Assembly: GCA_012295275.1 (NCBI GenBank)
Contig: CM022678.1
Span: 6,138,001 to 6,202,000, forward strand
DNA: 64,000 nucleotides
Source: Chrysomallon squamiferum
Lineage: Eukaryota; Animalia; Mollusca
Direction of reading: 5' to 3'
Below the pieces are notes generated by a model. That model made no database searches and had not been told where the DNA came from. It was given only the letters and a program-made list of their open reading frames with translations. Shown in pieces: positions 43,101 through 55,596 of the stretch; position 1 is the stretch's first letter; each line of letters opens with the position of its first letter. Made by a program: the position numbers and the translations under genes.

Positions 43101-46052
43101 ATGATGTAGAGGAATACTAATTGAAAAAAAATGTATGTCAAAAACATTTAGTGTTTAATGGCTTATACATGTATCCTTCAAATTTATGAAAAACATTTTT
43201 TTTTTCCTGAAACCTACCTGGTGCTGAAAGATTATTTTTATTTGAATCTGCAGTATGCTCTTCAGCAGGACCAGCAGAAAATAGTTCATCTGAAGAAATG
43301 CTATTGAAATTCTCAGGATTTATTCTATTAATAAAACTGGCGTTCTTTCGAAATGGTACAGATGATCTGGTTCTGTAATTAGCTTGAAACATGTTGTTAT
43401 TTGCTGATGATGTCAACTTTTCAGCAGAATTTAAAACGTCCTGATGTAATGGAACTGAATCATCAACTGGGGTAAAAGAAATCATAGAATATTATATTAT
43501 ATTTAAACTAATATTTGGGGCAACTGTGCATACAGTGGATGTGTCATAACTATCTCAATAAAAATAGTAGTTATATATATAAAAAAAAAAAATTCCTGAA
43601 ACCTACCTGGTGCTGAAAGATTATTTTGATTTGAATCTGCAGTCTGCTCTTCAGCAGGACCAGGAGAAAATAGCTCATCTGAACGAATGTCATTCAAATT
43701 CTCAGGAAATGGAATAGACGATCCAGTTCTGTAATTAACTGGAGACATATTGTTATTTGTTGAACAGACCCTCTGTTCAAATGGTTTTAAATCTGTCTGC
43801 TGTAATGGAACTGAATCATCAACTGCGGTAAAAGAAATCATAGAGTATTATAGACTAATATTTGGGGAAACTGTGCATACAGTGGATGTGTCATAACTAT
43901 CTCAATAAAAGTAGTACTTAACAGTGAGATAACAGATGCATACTGTAATTATTTTTCTGAAGTTCTAATGCTAAAGATGATACTGTTACTGATTTTCTAT
44001 CGGTATTATTATAATTTTGGCCATCACTTTTGCCATGTTGTTTGTATTTGAGGTTATAACAATAACAATTCACAACAGCAAAAGTTTCTTTTAATATGAA
44101 TGATGAATTTGAAGTCATTAAAGGGTGCCAAACATCTGATAAAATTTAAACAAATCATATGATTATGATGTAGAGGAATGCTATACAAAAAATATTTATG
44201 TCAAAAGTATTTAGTGTTTAAAGGCTTATACATGTATCCTTTAAAATGAACGAATTTTTTTTTTTTTCTGAAACCTACCTGGTGCTGAAAGATTATTTTG
44301 ATTTGAATCTGCAGTCTGCTCTTCAGCAGGACCAGGAGAAAATAGCTCATCTGAACGAATGTCATTCAAATTATTAGGAAATTGATTAGACGATCCAGTT
44401 CTGTAATTAACTGGAGACATATTGTTATTTGTTGATGAGACCCTCTGTTCAAATGGTTTTAAATCTGTCTGCTGTAATGGAACTGAATCATCAACTGGGA
44501 TCAAGGTCATTTGCCTCTCATATGAAACATTTCCTGGCTTCAGAGTTGTATTCTCAGGTTTTGCCTCGTTTGTGACTGAAATGGAATCACCTCGCTGGCT
44601 TGCATTAGTGTCCCATGTTAACTGTGTCAGTGAATTTTCATTTTTGTCTGGTTGGTATGGTACAACAGATATGTTACTGAACTTTTTAAAACACTCTGAA
44701 CAGTAAGGTGCTGTTTGAACTGTACTGAAGTTACCACAGTCTCTTTTACAAAGTGAATTTAACAACATCTTATGTTTTTTACTAGCATTTACAAGTGTGT
44801 TGGTGTTGAAATTATTGGATTCAGAGGTTACGCGACTAGGGGACCAATTGTTGTCATAACTCTCTCCAGTGGTAGAACTAGTCAATTCAGAAGATCCTGT
44901 TTCAAATAAATATTTTTGAAAACAAACACTACACATGTTCAGCTGATCTGGGTCACCATAAAAATTACAGCCATGTGTTTTACATACCTTCTGCCTACCA
45001 GCTACTGTTAAATCTGAAAAATGATTTGGCAAAGATTGGTATTTTGCCAGCTTTTCTTTGTCGTAGCATTTACTGCATTTATTACCAAACTTAGGACTGC
45101 CAAAATAGGCACAGCCTTGGACAATGCACTGATTAGAAGAAGCAGACTCATGTATTTCAGTTTTGTTTATACATTCAAAAAGCGTGAAGCAACCAGCACA
45201 TCTTCCACCCAGAGATTCTATGCCCTTCTTCGTGCATTCCTTTTCTGAACATTTTCTGTAATTTATCTCAGAAACACTTCTTTTAATTATCTGGTTGGGT
45301 TCTGTCAGACCACTGACATTTGAAGATACTCCAAGAGTATTATTCCAAGCATTATTTTCTAGCTCAATTTCAGTGTGATTTTCTAGTTCACCGGTTTCAT
45401 CTCTGTTTTTACATGAACACCAACAACCATTAAAAATATATTCTGGAACAGATGATGAAAATCCTTGACATTTTTTGCAAAACTGGAATAGATTAGCACA
45501 CTGGTTACACAGATCTGCATTTTGTTTGGAGCCATAATTTCGACACATTTTGTTTTTACATTTACCGATTTTATAGTTTTCCGTTTCTGATTTATTACAC
45601 CTTTCACAAACACACTTGTAAGCATTTATCAAACAACATGGTATGTCTTTAGTAAATCCAAAGCAAATACTGCAAAATCCATATTTTTCATTACACTGTG
45701 AACAGAAAGGGTAATTTTTGTCATTAGTAACGTTCTGACACTCAGGATTCTTGCAGATGTTCCGAGATGGAGCATTGTTTGTGGTTTCATGTTGACTGTC
45801 ACAGCAACAGAGAGGACATGAATGTAAACTGCCTGGAAGAGGTCTTGCTACTTTTTTACATTTTGTGCAAAATCGAAAACGTTCTGAACATTCATTACAT
45901 AGACCACCTGTTTTATCATTTCCAAAATGAGAACAATTTCTGTTCAAACATTGCATACTCTGTTTCTTAAAGCAGCTGTTGCACAAGTTTTGATTTTTTG
46001 GGTTGCCATAATTCGGACATCCAGAAGAACTACAGCGACTAGGATTTTGCAT
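36454..46052 (-). CDS. Paralogue copy 3 (full length): 8x A20-type zinc finger + spacer repeats + Macro-like + RING-variant + metacaspase-like domain, ~1279 aa; 1-nt frameshift at 36710-36714
   Basis: Exons 44279-46052, 43607-43822, 43218-43466, 42554-42706, 41661-41720, 40308-40484, 39713-39895, 38940-38969, 38549-38674, 37903-38029, 36454-37197. All are GT-AG and phase-compatible. Total 3839 nt, one short of 1280 codons. Confidence 0.8.
44279..46052 (-). CDS. Large exon encoding eight A20-type zinc fingers (C-x3/4-C-x11-C-x2-C)
   Basis: 603-aa ORF, e.g. CSSSGCPNYGNPKNQNLCNSC, CIVQGCAYFGSPKFGNKCSKC, CKTHGCNFYGDPDQLNMCSVC. Donor G|gtaggt at 44277-44278; upstream acceptor at 46147-46148. Confidence 0.9.
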
Positions 46053-46458
46053 ATCAGAAGAAAAATTAATTCAACCATTACAGTTAAATAGTCTTTTTGA
46101 GAATTCCTTGGGATAGGTTCACCATTGGGGCTTTTCAGATTAATATCTGGAATAAAAAAAAACCTAAATGATATACATGCAATAATAAGTAATAAAAAAT
46201 GGGCAAGTCTAATAAACAAATAATCCTGTGAACTCTAAACAATTAACAATAAGCTTAAAGAACTAAAACAGCTAAAAAATGTATCTCATAATGTGTATGT
46301 GTGTATTAGTTCATATTACATATATTTGGAAACTTCTAAAGAAGCATGCACATTGTTTGATCCAAGCAAAACTAATTACAAATAACATAATGAATATGTA
46401 GTTATAACTGATACCTCAGTAGTTTGTGTAAATCAAAGCATAATCTATTAATGAACAA

Positions 46459-48785: not shown

Positions 48786-51234
48786 ATGGCTTTAAGAATA
48801 AGAGTATCAAACACGTTGCGGTTAATTGGGTAAGGAAAATATGTTACCTAACAGGTATGCAGACGACATTCAGTGCATAAAGTGAAACATTTGATAAAGA
48901 TATTGAATATTTTTGTAAACTGAAACCAAATATAACTGTTGACATCTGATACCGTTTTTCTAAGAGTAAGTGCACGACCCAGTCTCGGAGTCTCCTAAAT
49001 CAGAATTTCGTAAGACATAAATAATATAAAATTCATAATGAAGCATATGCATCATAATGAAATAGAATAAAATAAATAATAATGAGGGTATTTTTTTTTT
49101 TTTTTAAATTTTCTGTTTGTGAATATTTAATTTAAAATTAAATGATTACTCATTGCAGCATAAGGTGAATTTAAAATTATAAATAAGTATTACTGAATAT
49201 AATCATTCATTCTATATCAATTATATTTTTAGTATTATTATTTTTTTTAGTATATACTGGTTTTAAACATCTGCATTCATATTTTTACATTTGATATCTA
49301 TCTTATAATGAAAGCTAGTAACTAAGTAAGTCGATAGTTTGTAATAAGTTGGATTTATTATTTATTTATTTATATATTTTGTGTTTATATTTTTGCAGTG
49401 TTCGCTGCATGGGAGGTGGTGAATGGGGATCCGGTTCTGGAAAGGTCAGTCAATAATATTTAATTAAAATGGTTACAGCAGGGATAACCATAGTGGTCAA
49501 AACTTTTTAGATGGTCAAAAGCTGATAGGGAGTTGACAGGAGTAATATATAAATACTGTCTATTAATAAACATCAAACATTTTTGCACACTTGTGAAAAC
49601 ATTTTTGTTTATTTTTTCATTTCTGTGTTTCTGTAAGGTTAGTTCTGATTTTGGCCTCGTAAATAACAAAACACGAAGAACAAACTGAATACAGAGTAAT
49701 GAGTTACAGTTAAAATTTGTCAATTTGCTACTGAATATTGATATTTTTCTATAAAAAAACAACAACCAAGCATGATGCTCTACCTTTAGAGATGTCAGAC
49801 AATCCATGAAAAGGTAATACTACATTATTTTATCATTAAAGGTTTATTACAAACCGAAAGAGAAAAATAAAATTTTGGGTCAAACTTATTTCCAGGCAGT
49901 TTTCTGAAAAGTCACCTCATCTGTCATTTCATGTTTCTTTTTATTTAATTATCAAGTCCAAATTCATTAGTGAAGTTAATTTTATTTGTTTTTTCTTTCT
50001 TCTTTTTTTTTTTTTCTTTTTTATTTCAGTTTCTGTCTTTTCCAACATTTAGATGAAGATTTTTTCGTTTATTTTTTTACTGTTCTCGATTTCGTTTATT
50101 AAGACAAGAATATGGTGGTTGATTTATTTAAGTCCTTACAGGGATTAAATAGTTATTCCATTTCTAGCTTCATGATTACAATCAATAAAACAATAACTGT
50201 ACATTTTTATAACTTTCACGAATAAGAAAGAAATGTTTTATTTATTAACAACTTGGTCTGTTTTAGTTATATTTGTTTCACACAGAACACATAGTTAAGA
50301 ACTCGATGAAAACAATTTATTTTTATTTTTAATCAACATTTGTTGATCTTTTAGTTTTACGTGCACCATTCATTAAAATACACAGTGTTTTGGTAAAACA
50401 AATAATAGGACGCTGACTTGGATTTTAAATCACAGAAGAAAAAATGTGTTTTGAGTGATTATATTGTAAACCCTGTATACCTTAAACTTGCAAATAAATG
50501 GATCTTGTTAGCCGTGCCATGTTAATAACAAATACAGATTTTGAAGGAATAAAAAAAAAAAAAAAAAAAAAGTCCAGCTTAAAGTTAAAATATAGACCGG
50601 TTTGTGTTACATGTTGAGAATTCCTTAACAAGTTCGGTGCTGGGCATTTTTGGGATTATTTTCACAAATTGAAACAAGTTTCTGCTTGTACTTGTACATG
50701 ATTTTCTGAATGCCGGGGAAGCCTACAGTAGACCAATAATTGCCTACGTCGGCACTGGAAGTCACATCACTAATGCGTGGCAATTTTAAAAGTATGACGG
50801 AGGTCACCGTCATTCAGCACCAACAGTGTTAAGAGATTGTTTAAAATCTTAGAAGAGAAGCAGAATAGGGTCTAAGGATAACTTTGAATTCTGTTCATAT
50901 TTCATAATATAGAAATAATCTGCAGGACCGTTTACATGATATTTCAAAAAAAATCATGCATTAATGATAAAATAAAGTGCATTTCCAGCAGTGCAAAATA
51001 AATGCCAGAATTTCAAGTCATCTCTGTTTGTCTAGTTCAAAAAAAAAAGGTTTTGGGTTTTGGAATTTCAGATAAGGGATTCTCAACCTCAGTAATGTAA
51101 AAATTATTTATCATTATTATATATTTTTGTATATTTGTTCATATCATATTTACATTTATGGTATGGTTGTTATGTATCCCTTTGACTACACTTAAATTAC
51201 AGGCTGTGCAAGTTAAGGCATATGTCTATGTCTT

Positions 51235-51276
<42 letters not shown>

Positions 51277-51550
51277 GTACCTATAATTGTGCATGTTGTT
51301 TTCACCATTAGTGTTTTTTTTTTTTTTTTTTTTCCAGGGTGGAGGAAGTGGTGGAAGTATTAGGTAAGACTTTTATTTTTATTTTTTTTAAATTGATTAT
51401 TATTATTTTTTTTTTTTTTTTTTTTTTTGCAAATTACTGATATAATAAGCAACTTCTGCTATTCTCTGAACTTGGACAACATTGCAATTCTGTATTTTTT
51501 ATTATTTTAATTAATATATTGTATAATTTTTTTAATTGTTTTTGTAATTT

Positions 51551-51589
<39 letters not shown>

Positions 51590-54500
51590 CAGAGATGCTG
51601 GTGGATCTTTTGGCAAAATGGAGGCTGCCCAGGAAGAGCAATATTTCAGAAAATTGGTAATTTTTTTTTTTTTTTACATATTTACATATTTTTTTTTTTT
51701 ATTATTATTTTTTTTAACCAAACATTCTTATGGGAACTAATGGAAAAAAATGAGAAAATCATTTTTGTAAATGTTTGTAAATAAATGGGTATTAAAATAA
51801 ACTTAGTATGAATTTGAACATGATGAATTCAGTGTGAAACTGATCACGAGAAATGGAGTATGAAATTGAGTGACAATTCAGTGTGAAAATTGTATGTCAT
51901 GAATTTTTTTGTGAAATTAATTATGATAAATGTACTGTGAAATTGAACTAAATAATTTTTAATGTGAAATTAATTATGATAAATGTACCATGAACTTGGG
52001 CGACATATTGATACGAATTTGAACAAAATGAATTTTATATGAAATGTAGTGTGAAATTGAGTGAAAATTTACCATGAATAAAACAGAAACATTTTTGGAA
52101 CCAGAGTGACATTAGAATTTATAAGAAATTGAGTATGAATCTGAATATTTGATACAAGATTGAATATTACAAGGCTTTAGCAAAAAATCAGGGTGAATTA
52201 TATGAAATTCAGTGACATAGGAATTTTATATGATACAAGTGAGCTAGCTGGACATTTTTTATTATTAAACTGGCCAGCTAAATTTTATTTCTAGTTTTAA
52301 TTATTATTTTGTTTTGTAATTATATTGATAGATCATACTTACTATTGTTTATTTTTTGTTTAAAAATCAAATAAATGTAGCTTTTTTTTTTTTTATCTGT
52401 TTTAAATGCTGATGTTTTCTTCAAAGAAAAAAATTAATAGAAAAGGTTTCGATAACATTTTTTAAAAAATCAACATAAAATGCTATCTGTAATTTCAAAA
52501 AGAGAACAAATTAGGAAATTTTATTTCTCAATTCTTTTTCCAAAAAAAAAAAGATTTGACTACAGCAAGCTGGAAAAAAAAAAAAAAAAAATACAGTCCA
52601 CTTTAAGTTTAAGACGTGCTCAAGTAGTTTTATTAGTTGTTTTTTTTCTGTTGCGTACAATTTTTTCATCACACGGTAAGACCCACTTCTTTTCTGTCAT
52701 GATTGATTTGCATTTAAAACAGCAAGCTGAACAGCTGAAAGAAATGAGAAAAATGATGGCCGATGAAATCGAATACCATTCAAAACAAATTGAAACGCAT
52801 AAGGTATATGTACGCTCGCAGTACAGAACTTTCGGTCCTGTACTGTACTGTGATATATGTATACGTATCATACACATGCATGTGTGGTCATGTATAGCCA
52901 CAGGTGTTTGCTTCTTGCATGCTATTCCATTTTCTGTTCAAATATATGGGTTTGTGAGACCTTGATAAAGTTGAGAGTTAATAGTAGCAAGTTTTGATTT
53001 GTTTTACTTTATCAGAAATATATATGTATAAATATATATGTATATGTATGTATGTATATGTATGTATGTATAACATATATATATATATTAATATATGAAT
53101 AACTTTATCAAATTAATGTAAAATAACTTTATCAAGAATGTAAACCTGTATGTTTGAAAATCCATGTGTAGAAGTAGATGGATTCCTATTATTTTTTTTA
53201 TTTTTTTTTTTTTGCATCTATTATTTTACTAATTTATCCTTCTATGTGTGTGTCTGTCTGTCAATGTGTGTGTATAGCAAGCTGAACAGTTAGAAAAACT
53301 TCATCAGCACTTAGAGGAAGAGGTGTCTCACCACGAAGAAAGCATTAAACAACATAAGGTATTTGGAAAACAGTATCTCGAGTCATTTTCGAAAAAAAAA
53401 AAAAAATCGTCCCTTAATTAATGTGTACTTTGATGAACTAGCCGAAATACATTTCGTACATTTGTTGTACGTGATTGTTTAATTTGATTTAAATTAATTT
53501 AATTAAATATTTACTCCTTTTTTTAAATTTTTTAAATGGATTACATGATGGTAATAATAAGTACTTTGTTTAAACTTCAGTTTCATTTTAAGTGTTTTAT
53601 TTAGAGGTCTTTGTTTGATTAAATTATTATACATATTTCTTGAAAAAAAAAAAAAAAAAAAAAAAAAAGACATCTGTTGGAGAATGCATGAATGGTTCTG
53701 TATTTTTTTTTTCTTTTCTATTCTTTGTAATACCATAATCATTGCTTCAGTTTGAATTTGACACAGATTTATCATAATAAACCTCCGATTTAATTTTTTA
53801 TGTTTAAAGTCATTAAATATACTTATTAAAATAAAATATATATATATATATACATACATACACACACATGTATATTAAAAGATCATAATTAAAATGTGTG
53901 TGTTGTGTATCCTGAACAAAAAAAAAATCTGAGTAACTTTATATTTTATTATTAATATTGATGTCTGGGAATACGTAGACATAACATGTGCATATGAATT
54001 GGTTTTTAACTGTTTCATTCTTATTAACTTTCAGTAAACAAACCATGCAAACAGAAAACAATAATTAAAAAGTAATAAATGAAATAATAAAAGTAACATA
54101 TAAAAAAAAAAAAAAAGATTTTTTGGTTTATTTTATTATTTTAAAAGAAATGTATAAAATATTTGTCTCAGAAACTGTTTTATCAGTCATGTTGAAAGTT
54201 ATTAATAAACTTTTGAACTTTGACCTCTTGAGCCACATTTTTATGTAATCCCTTGCTTTGTTACAGAAATGCCCCAAATTATTTCTAGGCAAAATGAAGG
54301 AAATTTTTAATCTATAATTGATACCTTTATTTATTTTCTTTGGTGAACAAGCTCATTTTTAAAGTTTGATTAAACTTTTTTTTAGAAATATAAATTTTAT
54401 TTCTTGGTGGATGGAAATTTTATTATGGTATTTGTTTATTTAGTGGCACTAAAACATTTTTGATTTCTTTAAATTGGCTTCTGCTTTCATTTTAATTTTT

Positions 54501-55290
54501 TTAATTTTTTTTTATGTATGTATTTGTATTTGTATTCTTTATTGTGTTTTTGCTTATTAGTACAGATTAATTACTTTTTTTATTTATTTAATATTAAATC
54601 ATCTTTACTTACTTACGTACGTATTGTTGTGAAATACTGTAATTAAATTATTTTTGTAAAAACACATACTAATATGCATTTGCTACTCCCTCATTGAATA
54701 TTAATTATAAATTAAATTTTGTGGAATAATGTAACTGAATGCTTAGAAATATGTTAAATTATATTGTAGAAACATCTATTGATCATACACATACATATAT
54801 ATATTAATGTTCTTTTTATAGCACTAGAATTCAGTTTTATAAATATATTTGTAGAAAGTTATTTTCAACAAAAGTGCTGCCTTAAATCAGTTCAGTTTCA
54901 TGAATATATAAACTAATGCTCTTCATGTAAACATTGAAGAACTGTTTTTCCCATTTTTATTTTTTACCATCAAGTTTCAAAAATTATTTTCTGTTAATAT
55001 ACCACTAATAATGGTATAAAAAAAAAATGTGTGTGAATTCTTTCTTTTTCAAAAATATATTCTCAGTTTTATTAAAATGGAAATCTAAAAAAAAAAAAAA
55101 AAAAATGACCATTTTTTATAAAAACATGTAAATAACCATCATTTGACAATTCTCAGGATTTTTGAAGAAAAAAAAGTTTTCACATTTTTCTTCTTCTTCT
55201 TTTCAGGAAGCTATTGAGAGGCACAAGAAAAAAATTGGCCAGCTAAAACATGAGGAAGAGAAAACAAAGAAAAATTATGATTCAGATTAA
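48786..55290 (+). CDS. ATP5IF1: Mitochondrial ATP synthase inhibitory factor 1 (IF1), 114 aa per isoform
   Basis: Exons 48786-48829, 49399-49444, 51338-51363, 51593-51656, 52723-52803 or 53278-53358, 55207-55290. Translation MALRIRVSNTLRLIG (presequence-like) ... [36 protein letters not shown] ... EAIERHKKKI is the IF1 signature. Confidence 0.93.
52723..52803 (+). CDS. ATP5IF1: IF1 alternative exon 5a (QAEQLKEMRKMMADEIEYHSKQIETHK)
   Basis: 81 nt, ag|...|gt, phase 0-0. Confidence 0.85.
53278..53358 (+). CDS. ATP5IF1: IF1 alternative exon 5b (QAEQLEKLHQHLEEEVSHHEESIKQHK)
   Basis: 81 nt, ag|...|gt, phase 0-0, homologous to 5a. Confidence 0.88.
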
Positions 55291-55590: not shown

Positions 55591-55596
55591 AATAAA
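55591..55596 (+). terminator. Candidate polyadenylation signal of the IF1 gene
   Basis: AATAAA about 300 nt after the stop codon, followed by a T/GT-rich tract. Confidence 0.5.

What the first reader, a model, noticed from the sequence alone, without database searches (positions are those of the whole stretch)
52723..53358. IF1 has duplicated, probably mutually exclusive exons that swap the pH-sensing histidine region
Seen: two homologous 81-nt phase 0-0 exons; 5a has 2 His and 5b has 5 His. Known: in bovine IF1 this segment (KKHHENEISHH; H48, H49, H55, H56) controls pH-dependent oligomerisation and activity. By alignment 5b keeps the H48, H55 and H56 equivalents, while 5a has Met, Met, Tyr, His. 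Inference: splicing yields pH-sensitive and less pH-sensitive inhibitors of ATP hydrolysis, possibly tissue- or hypoxia-regulated. Including both exons would instead lengthen the coiled coil.
Basis: partly seen in the sequence, partly recalled or inferred. Interest (0 to 1): 0.7.

Follow-up and report, generated by a model that had tools for sequence, protein, structure and literature searches.

The report
Swappable exon in mollusc ATP-synthase brake
The gene for the protein that stops mitochondria wasting ATP, here likely from a marine snail, holds two versions of one small exon that database gene models of 15 other molluscs and a ribbon worm also swap, likely giving a histidine-rich and a histidine-poor brake whose different response to acidity is predicted but untested.

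Summary
An IF1 gene (Pfam IATP) has two 81-nt, phase-0 copies of exon 5 (10/27 residues identical; 2 versus 5 His), and each gives a 114-residue protein. Database isoform sets from 16 species (gastropods, a mussel, oysters, a nemertean) swap exactly this segment with identical flanks. None of 239 IF1 proteins examined carries two copies. Mutually exclusive splicing is therefore likely (about 0.9) and probably old in molluscs. The pH reading is only partly supported. Neither exon has His49, the residue the literature calls critical in bovine IF1. His56, His63, His70 and Glu26 are shared. The recurring contrast is position 55 (Tyr/Phe/Ile versus His/Asn), while His48 differs only in some snails. 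A hairpin over the 5a donor and two downstream UGCAUG motifs suggest RBFOX-type tissue control (inferred). Five literature searches found no description. This scan noted the same swap earlier in a marine worm (e1-9906119). Verdict: real, conserved, apparently undescribed variant of IF1 regulation, function untested.

The parts
48786..48829 (+). IF1 exon 1, coding part (start codon, mitochondrial presequence)
   Evidence: GT donor; open frame through all exons; N-terminus resembles Gigantopelta and limpet IF1
49399..49444 (+). IF1 exon 2 (46 nt)
   Evidence: AG/GT boundaries, frame
51338..51363 (+). IF1 exon 3 (26 nt, glycine-rich)
   Evidence: AG/GT boundaries, frame
51593..51656 (+). IF1 exon 4: shared inhibitory core, bovine residues 17-37 (F22, E26, A28, E30, Y33, F34 kept)
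   Evidence: Pfam IATP E 3.8e-6, above cut-off; matches bovine IF1 17-35 in PDB
52723..52803 (+). Exon 5a, His-poor copy, bovine residues 38-64 (M45, R46, M48, M49, Y55, H56, H63)
52804..52864 (+). Predicted hairpin that pairs the 5a donor (candidate silencer of 5a)
   Evidence: -24.6 kcal/mol for the 70-nt window at the donor, z -3.65, 1 of 200 shuffles as stable; the longer window 52795-52930 gave z -1.88, 9 of 200
52877..52886 (+). UGCAUG overlapping GUGUG (RBFOX-type plus SUP-12-type motif), 74 nt after 5a
   Evidence: motif meaning from PMC2777236 passages; function inferred
52916..52921 (+). Second UGCAUG, 113 nt after 5a
   Evidence: two in 150 nt has Poisson p about 5e-4 at the window's rate, chosen after seeing them
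53227..53233 (+). Candidate branch point of 5b, about 46 nt before the acceptor
   Evidence: consensus match, 98-nt AG-free zone; inferred
53244..53275 (+). UG-rich tract in place of a normal pyrimidine tract before 5b
   Evidence: sequence; pyrimidine fraction 0.59
53278..53358 (+). Exon 5b, His-rich copy, bovine residues 38-64 (L45, H46, H48, L49, H55, H56, H63)
   Evidence: 81% identical to the Gigantopelta X2 segment; joined to exon 4 in one RNA contig
55207..55290 (+). IF1 exon 6, coding part to the stop (shared coiled-coil end, H70)
   Evidence: frame; last exon held by RNA runs X1-X4 at 0.62-0.79 of sampled words
55591..55596 (+). Candidate polyadenylation signal
   Evidence: first AATAAA after the stop

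Best explanation
This IF1 gene carries two tandem copies of the exon for residues 38-64 that are likely spliced one at a time, giving two equally long inhibitors with the same core and tail, whose different middle helix is predicted to shift how readily they pack into inactive oligomers as pH changes, though not by the bovine His49 switch. Shown: the two exons, their frame, the shared core, the same swap in 16 species' gene models, and one exon 4-to-5b RNA junction. Inferred, step 1: exclusion is regulatory, because the 474-nt intron is too long for steric exclusion and both exons keep the frame, so decay of double-included transcripts cannot enforce it. Inferred, step 2: 5a is held back by a hairpin over its donor and switched on where an RBFOX-type factor binds the two downstream UGCAUG motifs (muscle or nerve), which would also disfavour 5b. 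Inferred, step 3: the core histidines (56, 63, 70) and E26 are constant, while the outward-facing positions 55 and, in this lineage, 48 and 46 change from His to Tyr/Met/Arg. The 5b form would then gain more charge on acidification (about 1.2 versus 0.5 units from pH 8 to 6.5, textbook pKa) and differ in dimer-dimer packing. Changes at 43-45 could also tune binding to F1. Odds: exclusive splicing about 0.9; tissue-biased choice about 0.65; a measurable difference in pH or oligomer behaviour about 0.5.
For: Gene model and frames. Isoform sets with identical 40 aa upstream and identical C-terminus in 16 of 16 sets assembled (names). No second copy in 0 of 239 IF1 proteins examined and no direct skip seen. 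RNA run X4: one 147-nt contig, depth 6.6, whose 14 loose letters equal the end of exon 4. Each window exon groups with its own type in Gigantopelta (70% and 81%) rather than with its neighbour (37%). Position 55 is bulky hydrophobic in one form and His/Asn in the other in 15 of 16 sets; one form has more His in 15 of 16 sets. Labelling by position 55 ranks 1 of 32 possible labellings of six mollusc lineages even with columns 46, 48, 55 and 56 removed. Hairpin and motifs; positional rule for RBFOX motifs. Residues 39-45 affect F1 binding in bovine IF1; residues 32-44 form the oligomer contact.
Against: The RNA junction has only 15 letters on the exon-4 side, below the tool's 31-letter rule for a bridge. 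It was seen in 1 of 4 runs, and the contig runs on into the next intron, so it looks partly spliced; no 5b-to-exon 6 junction was seen and 5a was never laid. The relatives' isoforms are annotation models whose exon boundaries I could not view. The double-inclusion count rests on the listed top hits only (120 of 1093 and 120 of 1043). Pomacea's two forms have equal His (3 and 3) and equal calculated pH response, and Littorina's two seen forms both keep H55-H56. Predicted donor pairing is not unique to 5a: mean unpaired probability 0.31, against 0.29 for 5b and 0.17 for exon 1. A third UGCAUG lies 327 nt after 5b. The heptad register is my assignment, not read from a structure. No functional data exist.
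Confidence: 0.6

Rival explanations
1. One reading: 5b restores a bovine-type histidine pH switch and 5a is a constitutively active inhibitor like the H49K mutant.
For: 5 versus 2 His in the window and in Gigantopelta and four Haliotis species. A review says the five histidines 48, 49, 55, 56 and 70 together matter for pH response. H48 or H46 sits next to 49 and might take over the E26 contact (inference).
Against: H49 is absent from both exons and from 34 of 35 paired segments. Replacement of H49 abolishes oligomer formation in bovine IF1, and the E26-H49 bridge is what stabilises the bovine tetramer. Yeast lacks H49 and is still pH-dependent, with E26 implicated; E26 is shared by both isoforms here.
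Confidence: 0.15
2. The swap is real and selected but concerns something other than pH: affinity or kinetics of F1 binding, dimer partner choice, bridging of ATP synthase dimers, turnover, or metal binding by the His stripe.
For: The exon covers K39, E40, Q41, L42, A43, A44 and L45, which affect bovine F1 binding. Position 39 is Ala in the His-rich form of 7 of 7 mollusc pairs tabulated and Lys, Arg or Asp in the other form of 6 of 7. Position 46 is Arg in the His-poor form of 7 of 8 lineages. Pomacea's forms do not differ in His count.
Against: In the window both exons have A39, E40, Q41 and L42. The most regular contrast is at position 55, outside the F1-bound stretch (bound region 21-46), and involves a titratable residue.
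Confidence: 0.2
3. In this species one exon (most likely 5a) is a silent relic, or both are included to lengthen the coiled coil.
For: 5a was not tested in RNA. It has a weak acceptor (pyrimidine fraction 0.5) and a paired donor. Double inclusion keeps the frame (141 aa). Limpets, heterobranch snails, cephalopods and a chiton showed one form per gene among the hits.
Against: Both exons are intact and each is 70-81% identical to its own type in Gigantopelta, where both are annotated as isoforms. The exon 4-to-5b contig shows that 5a can be skipped. 0 of 239 proteins have two copies.
Confidence: 0.05

Closest known systems
Mammalian IF1 (bovine and human ATP5IF1/ATPIF1; Pfam PF04568; PDB 1gmj, 2v7q, 8h9e)
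   Same: Gapless match over the inhibitory helix and coiled coil. F22, E26, A28, E30, Y33, F34, Q41, L42, H56 and H70 are kept in both isoforms.
   Different: No H49. Residues 38-64 exist in two interchangeable versions. Human splice isoforms 2 and 3 are C-terminally truncated and thought non-inhibitory, whereas these are full-length replacements.
Annotated IF1 isoform pairs of Gigantopelta aegis, Haliotis, Pomacea, Babylonia, Littorina, Mytilus, oysters and Lineus longissimus
   Same: Same 27-residue swap with identical flanks. Gigantopelta is the closest named relative: 83 and 86 identical positions for the 114-aa 5a and 5b forms.
   Different: These are automatic database isoforms with no comment on mechanism. 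Lineus has three versions. Oysters' His-poor form also loses H56.
Decapod crustacean IF1 long and short isoforms (Penaeus, Homarus, Macrobrachium, Petrolisthes)
   Same: Sequences diverge at the same point, right after residue 37.
   Different: The short form ends about 22-24 residues later and has no His in the segment: an alternative ending, not an internal exon swap.
Yeast If1/Stf1 paralogue pair
   Same: Two inhibitors with different potency in one organism; pH-dependent without H49.
   Different: Two genes rather than two exons of one gene.
RBFOX-regulated mutually exclusive exons (C. elegans egl-15 5A/5B, unc-32 7a/7b)
   Same: UGCAUG next to GUGUG near an exon pair; downstream motifs enhance and upstream motifs repress.
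   Different: egl-15 has a 14-nt intervening intron that forbids double inclusion; here it is 474 nt. Binding is only inferred from motifs.

Membership tests
IF1 / IATP (PF04568) | Pfam IATP match above the curated cut-off | tested here: met
   Exon 4 alone scores 27.7 bits against a cut-off of 25; both Gigantopelta isoforms score above 90 bits
IF1 / IATP (PF04568) | F1-binding residues F22, A28, E30, Y33, F34, Q41, L42, L45 | tested here: met
   All present in 5b form; 5a has M45. R25 is Met and A21 is Ser in both
IF1 / IATP (PF04568) | Inhibits ATP hydrolysis by F1Fo in mitochondria | not testable with these tools
   Needs an enzyme assay
Bovine-type His49 pH switch | His at position 49 pairing with E26 in the inactive tetramer | tested here: not met
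   M49 in 5a and L49 in 5b; E26 present; role
Bovine-type His49 pH switch | Dimer-to-tetramer shift between pH 6.5 and 8 | not testable with these tools
   Needs ultracentrifugation or size-exclusion data
Homologous mutually exclusive exons | Tandem homologous exons of equal length and phase with their own splice sites | tested here: met
Homologous mutually exclusive exons | Each exon found alone between the flanking exons in transcripts | tested here: inconclusive
   In this organism only a 4-to-5b junction with a 15-letter overhang, in 1 of 4 runs; in 16 other species both forms are annotated
Homologous mutually exclusive exons | No double inclusion | tested here: inconclusive
   0 of 239 proteins have two copies and no 5a letters preceded 5b in the contigs laid, but both samples are limited
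Homologous mutually exclusive exons | Exclusion by a too-short intron or by frameshift and decay | tested here: not met
   474-nt intron, candidate branch point over 400 nt from the 5a donor, both exons a multiple of three
RBFOX-regulated exon | UGCAUG in the flanking intron | tested here: met
   52877, 52916 and 53685
RBFOX-regulated exon | Motif conserved in related genomes and needed for tissue-specific choice | not testable with these tools
   No animal genomes are held; needs introns of relatives and a minigene

The most novel reading that the evidence does not exclude
A single exon duplication before gastropods and bivalves split, perhaps shared with ribbon worms, gave these animals a splice switch between two IF1 forms with different pH thresholds set by residue 55 and its neighbours instead of His49. 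Muscle or nerve would use one form and other tissues the other, so hypoxia-tolerant molluscs would set by splicing how acidic mitochondria must become before ATP hydrolysis is braked.
Probability: 0.25. Interest if true: 0.75.

Novelty: new variant of a known kind. Interest (0 to 1): 0.5.

Why it matters
IF1 decides whether stressed mitochondria burn ATP. Its known controls are pH, ions, expression level and a disputed phosphorylation. A full-length exon swap over the oligomer and histidine region would add splicing as a control layer, in animals that regularly face low oxygen (recalled). It also supplies a natural paired experiment: most fetched invertebrate IF1 segments lack His49 (158 of 174), and how they sense pH is open. 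Two isoforms that differ in 17 residues make that testable. The limits: the isoforms already sit unremarked in databases, exon-duplication splicing is a known mechanism, and no functional difference has been shown.

Tried and rejected
No whole genome is held, so relatives' introns and exon order were not seen. RNA coverage was examined for exon 5b only; exon 5a and the junctions to exon 6 remain untested. A docking-site/selector pairing was sought among 1071 inverted pairs: the 25 longest shown are simple-sequence matches, so it was rejected as unsupported. The tree of 35 segments on 27 columns is unresolved: the two types need 4 changes, 6% of bootstrap trees give one split, and starred branches force only 1. 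One origin is not ruled out and not shown. With key columns removed, same-type similarity beats within-species similarity in only 9 of 15 mollusc comparisons, and the Lineus assignment is marginal (2531 versus 2525). A third exon copy was sought and not found. My first exon 1 and 2 ends were one base off and were corrected. No structure or complex job was run: a homodimer or heterodimer would resemble solved IF1 and not separate the rivals. Primary papers by Schnizer 1996, Cabezon 2001 and Boreikaite 2019 were not held; paper searches gave nothing relevant. No supplements were read.

Full report
Observation. The window holds a plus-strand IF1 gene with coding exons at 48786-48829, 49399-49444, 51338-51363, 51593-51656, 52723-52803 (5a), 53278-53358 (5b) and 55207-55290, all with AG/GT ends. 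Either 5a or 5b gives an open 114-residue protein; both together give 141 and neither gives 87. The two exons are 81 nt, phase 0-0, 44/81 nt and 10/27 aa identical, with 3 of the 10 identical residues encoded by different codons. Their similarity was reached by 0 of 100,000 shuffles, and no further copy exists in the window. Exon 4 passes the Pfam IATP cut-off, and 5a and 5b each map to profile positions 68-93.

Register. Exon 4 matches bovine IF1 residues 17-35, and the Gigantopelta 5b-type protein aligns without gaps to mammalian IF1 through the coiled coil. The swapped exon therefore covers residues 38-64. 5a has M45 R46 M48 M49 Y55 H56 H63; 5b has L45 H46 H48 L49 H55 H56 H63; E26 and H70 lie in shared exons.

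Relatives. Three protein searches (the last two listed 120 of 1093 and 120 of 1043 hits) and three cluster look-ups gave isoform sets in 16 named species: Gigantopelta aegis, four Haliotis, Pomacea, Babylonia, Littorina, Mytilus galloprovincialis, six oysters and the nemertean Lineus longissimus, which has three versions. I assembled these 16 sets by name after spotting the pattern. In 16 of 16 the 40 residues upstream and the whole C-terminus are identical, while the 27-residue segment is 9-15 of 27 identical. They are database models; I could not see their DNA. Intron read-through proteins such as P0003 and P0202 break off at the two ends of the segment, as expected if the intron positions are shared. 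Of 245 proteins held, 239 could be anchored; none has a second copy and none shows a direct skip. Limpets, heterobranch snails, a chiton, cephalopods, three heterodont clams and four annelids showed one version of the segment per gene among the hits, which does not prove absence. The closest named relative is Gigantopelta, a neomphaline gastropod, so the window likely comes from a related snail.

Age. Window 5a is 70% identical to Gigantopelta X1 and 5b is 81% identical to X2, against 37% to each other, so the pair predates that split. For six mollusc lineages, labelling by residue 55 ranks first of 32 labellings with all columns and also without columns 46, 48, 55 and 56; for four deeper lineages it ranks first of 8. 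Same-type similarity exceeds within-species similarity in 14 of 15 comparisons with all columns but only 9 of 15 without those four. The tree is unresolved. One duplication before the gastropod-bivalve split is favoured, not shown; a link to the Lineus copies is weak.

RNA. Four RNA runs of one study hold the last exon. I laid X1, X2, X4 and X23 on exon 5b and its flanks only. In X4 one 147-nt contig (depth 6.6) starts with 14 loose letters equal to the end of exon 4, covers 5b and runs on into the next intron. That is a 4-to-5b junction skipping 5a, in what looks like a partly spliced RNA; its overhang is below the tool's 31-letter standard. X1 gave an unspliced contig, X2 nothing, and X23 an unspliced contig with one synonymous difference at 53328. 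No 5b-to-6 or 5a-to-5b junction was seen. Use of 5a in this organism rests on conservation alone.

How exclusion may work (inferred). The 474-nt intron with a candidate branch point about 46 nt before 5b rules out steric exclusion, and both exons keep the frame (mechanisms listed in PMC4165533, passages). Both have weak acceptors, pyrimidine fraction 0.50 and 0.59 against 0.91-1.0 for exons 3, 4 and 6. A hairpin at 52804-52864 pairs the 5a donor: z -3.65, 1 of 200 shuffles, whereas the four other donors tested had z between -0.77 and 0.83. A longer window gave z -1.88, and ensemble pairing of the donor is no greater than at 5b. Two UGCAUG motifs lie 74 and 113 nt after 5a, the first overlapping GUGUG; a third lies 327 nt after 5b. 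Fox-1 family proteins enhance exons from downstream sites and repress from upstream sites, and act with SUP-12 on UGCAUG plus GUGUG in worm muscle (PMC2777236, passages). I therefore predict 5a in muscle or nerve and 5b elsewhere.

What the swap may do (inferred). PMC3433140 (passages) names H48, H49, H55, H56 and H70 as the pH-sensing group, calls H49 critical, says its replacement gives full activity at pH 8, places the oligomer contact at 32-44, and notes that yeast lacks H49 and that E26 also senses pH. PMC3041923 (passages) reports the E26-H49 bridge in the tetramer and strong effects of K39, E40, A43, A44 and L45 on F1 binding. PMC9398489, PMC10906535, PMC6156145 and PMC12238618 (passages) and PMC12637840 (first part of the text) agree on the dimer-tetramer model. 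The primary mutant papers were not seen. Among 174 distinct anchored segments (short or unanchored ones dropped), H49 occurs in 16, H56 in 162, H63 in 159, H70 in 161 and E26 in 157, while position 55 is His in 63, Phe in 50 and Tyr in 28. Within isoform sets, position 55 is His versus Tyr/Phe/Ile in 13 of 16, Asn versus aromatic in 2, and His in both in 1. H48 is kept in both forms in 9 of 16. In my heptad assignment 49, 56, 63 and 70 face the coiled-coil core and 48 and 55 face outward. The swap thus leaves the core histidines and changes an outer stripe plus residues 43-46. A graded change in oligomer packing and pH threshold is more likely than an on-off bovine switch. A non-pH role remains a serious rival.

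Novelty. IF1 is well known and homologous exclusive exons are a known kind. Searches (IF1, alternative splicing, mutually exclusive; IF1, shrimp, isoforms, hypoxia; ATPase inhibitor, molluscs, mutually exclusive exons; ATPIF1, alternatively spliced, invertebrate, mai-2; 0 papers; IF1, bivalve, splice; 0 papers) listed no paper on this swap; I saw listings only, and most subscription journals are not held. Human splice forms are truncations, and decapod short forms end early after the same junction. An earlier unchecked note of this scan reports the same swap in a marine worm; I had reached my reading before seeing it and do not count it as support.

Verdict. Observation confirmed; interpretation partly supported; new variant of a known kind; interest 0.5.

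Noticed in passing
window 52562-52572 (+): An exact 11-nt copy of the 5a acceptor junction lies 157 nt upstream of 5a, followed by an A-run (2 matches in the window, 0.01 expected). The next 81 nt are not exon-like. It may be a relic of a further duplication or a cryptic acceptor.
   Followed up: partly
window 43138-46070 (-): A neighbouring, divergently oriented gene has a 609-codon frame with five A20 zinc-finger matches. The end of that large exon, donor included, is present in three tandem copies (near 43218, 43607, 44279), which could be alternative or extra exons.
   Followed up: partly
window 53359-53407 (+): The X4 contig continues from 5b into the intron towards an A-run; read-through would end 20 codons after the exon. 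An oyster Logan protein (P0202) also reads from the same exon type into the intron. Probably unspliced RNA, but a short alternative ending is not excluded.
   Followed up: partly
proteins P0016, P0022, P0025, P0042-P0045, P0049: Decapod crustaceans have 85-87-residue IF1 isoforms that leave the long form right after residue 37 and lack the His region: alternative splicing at the same junction with a different outcome.
   Followed up: partly
proteins P0111, P0115, P0190 and P0077, P0083: Lineus has three versions of the segment. Littorina X2 and X3 are both H55-H56 types and its X1 was not retrieved, so it may also have three.
   Followed up: partly
proteins P0057/P0079 and P0066/P0089: Two land snails show two IF1 proteins that differ along their length, so two genes rather than two exons.
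   Followed up: no
window 53328 and 53264: Run X23 differs by a synonymous T>G in 5b; run X1 has one extra TG in the tract before 5b.
   Followed up: no
window 51800-52220 (+): Degenerate repeats of about 26 nt in the intron before 5a; not examined.
   Followed up: no
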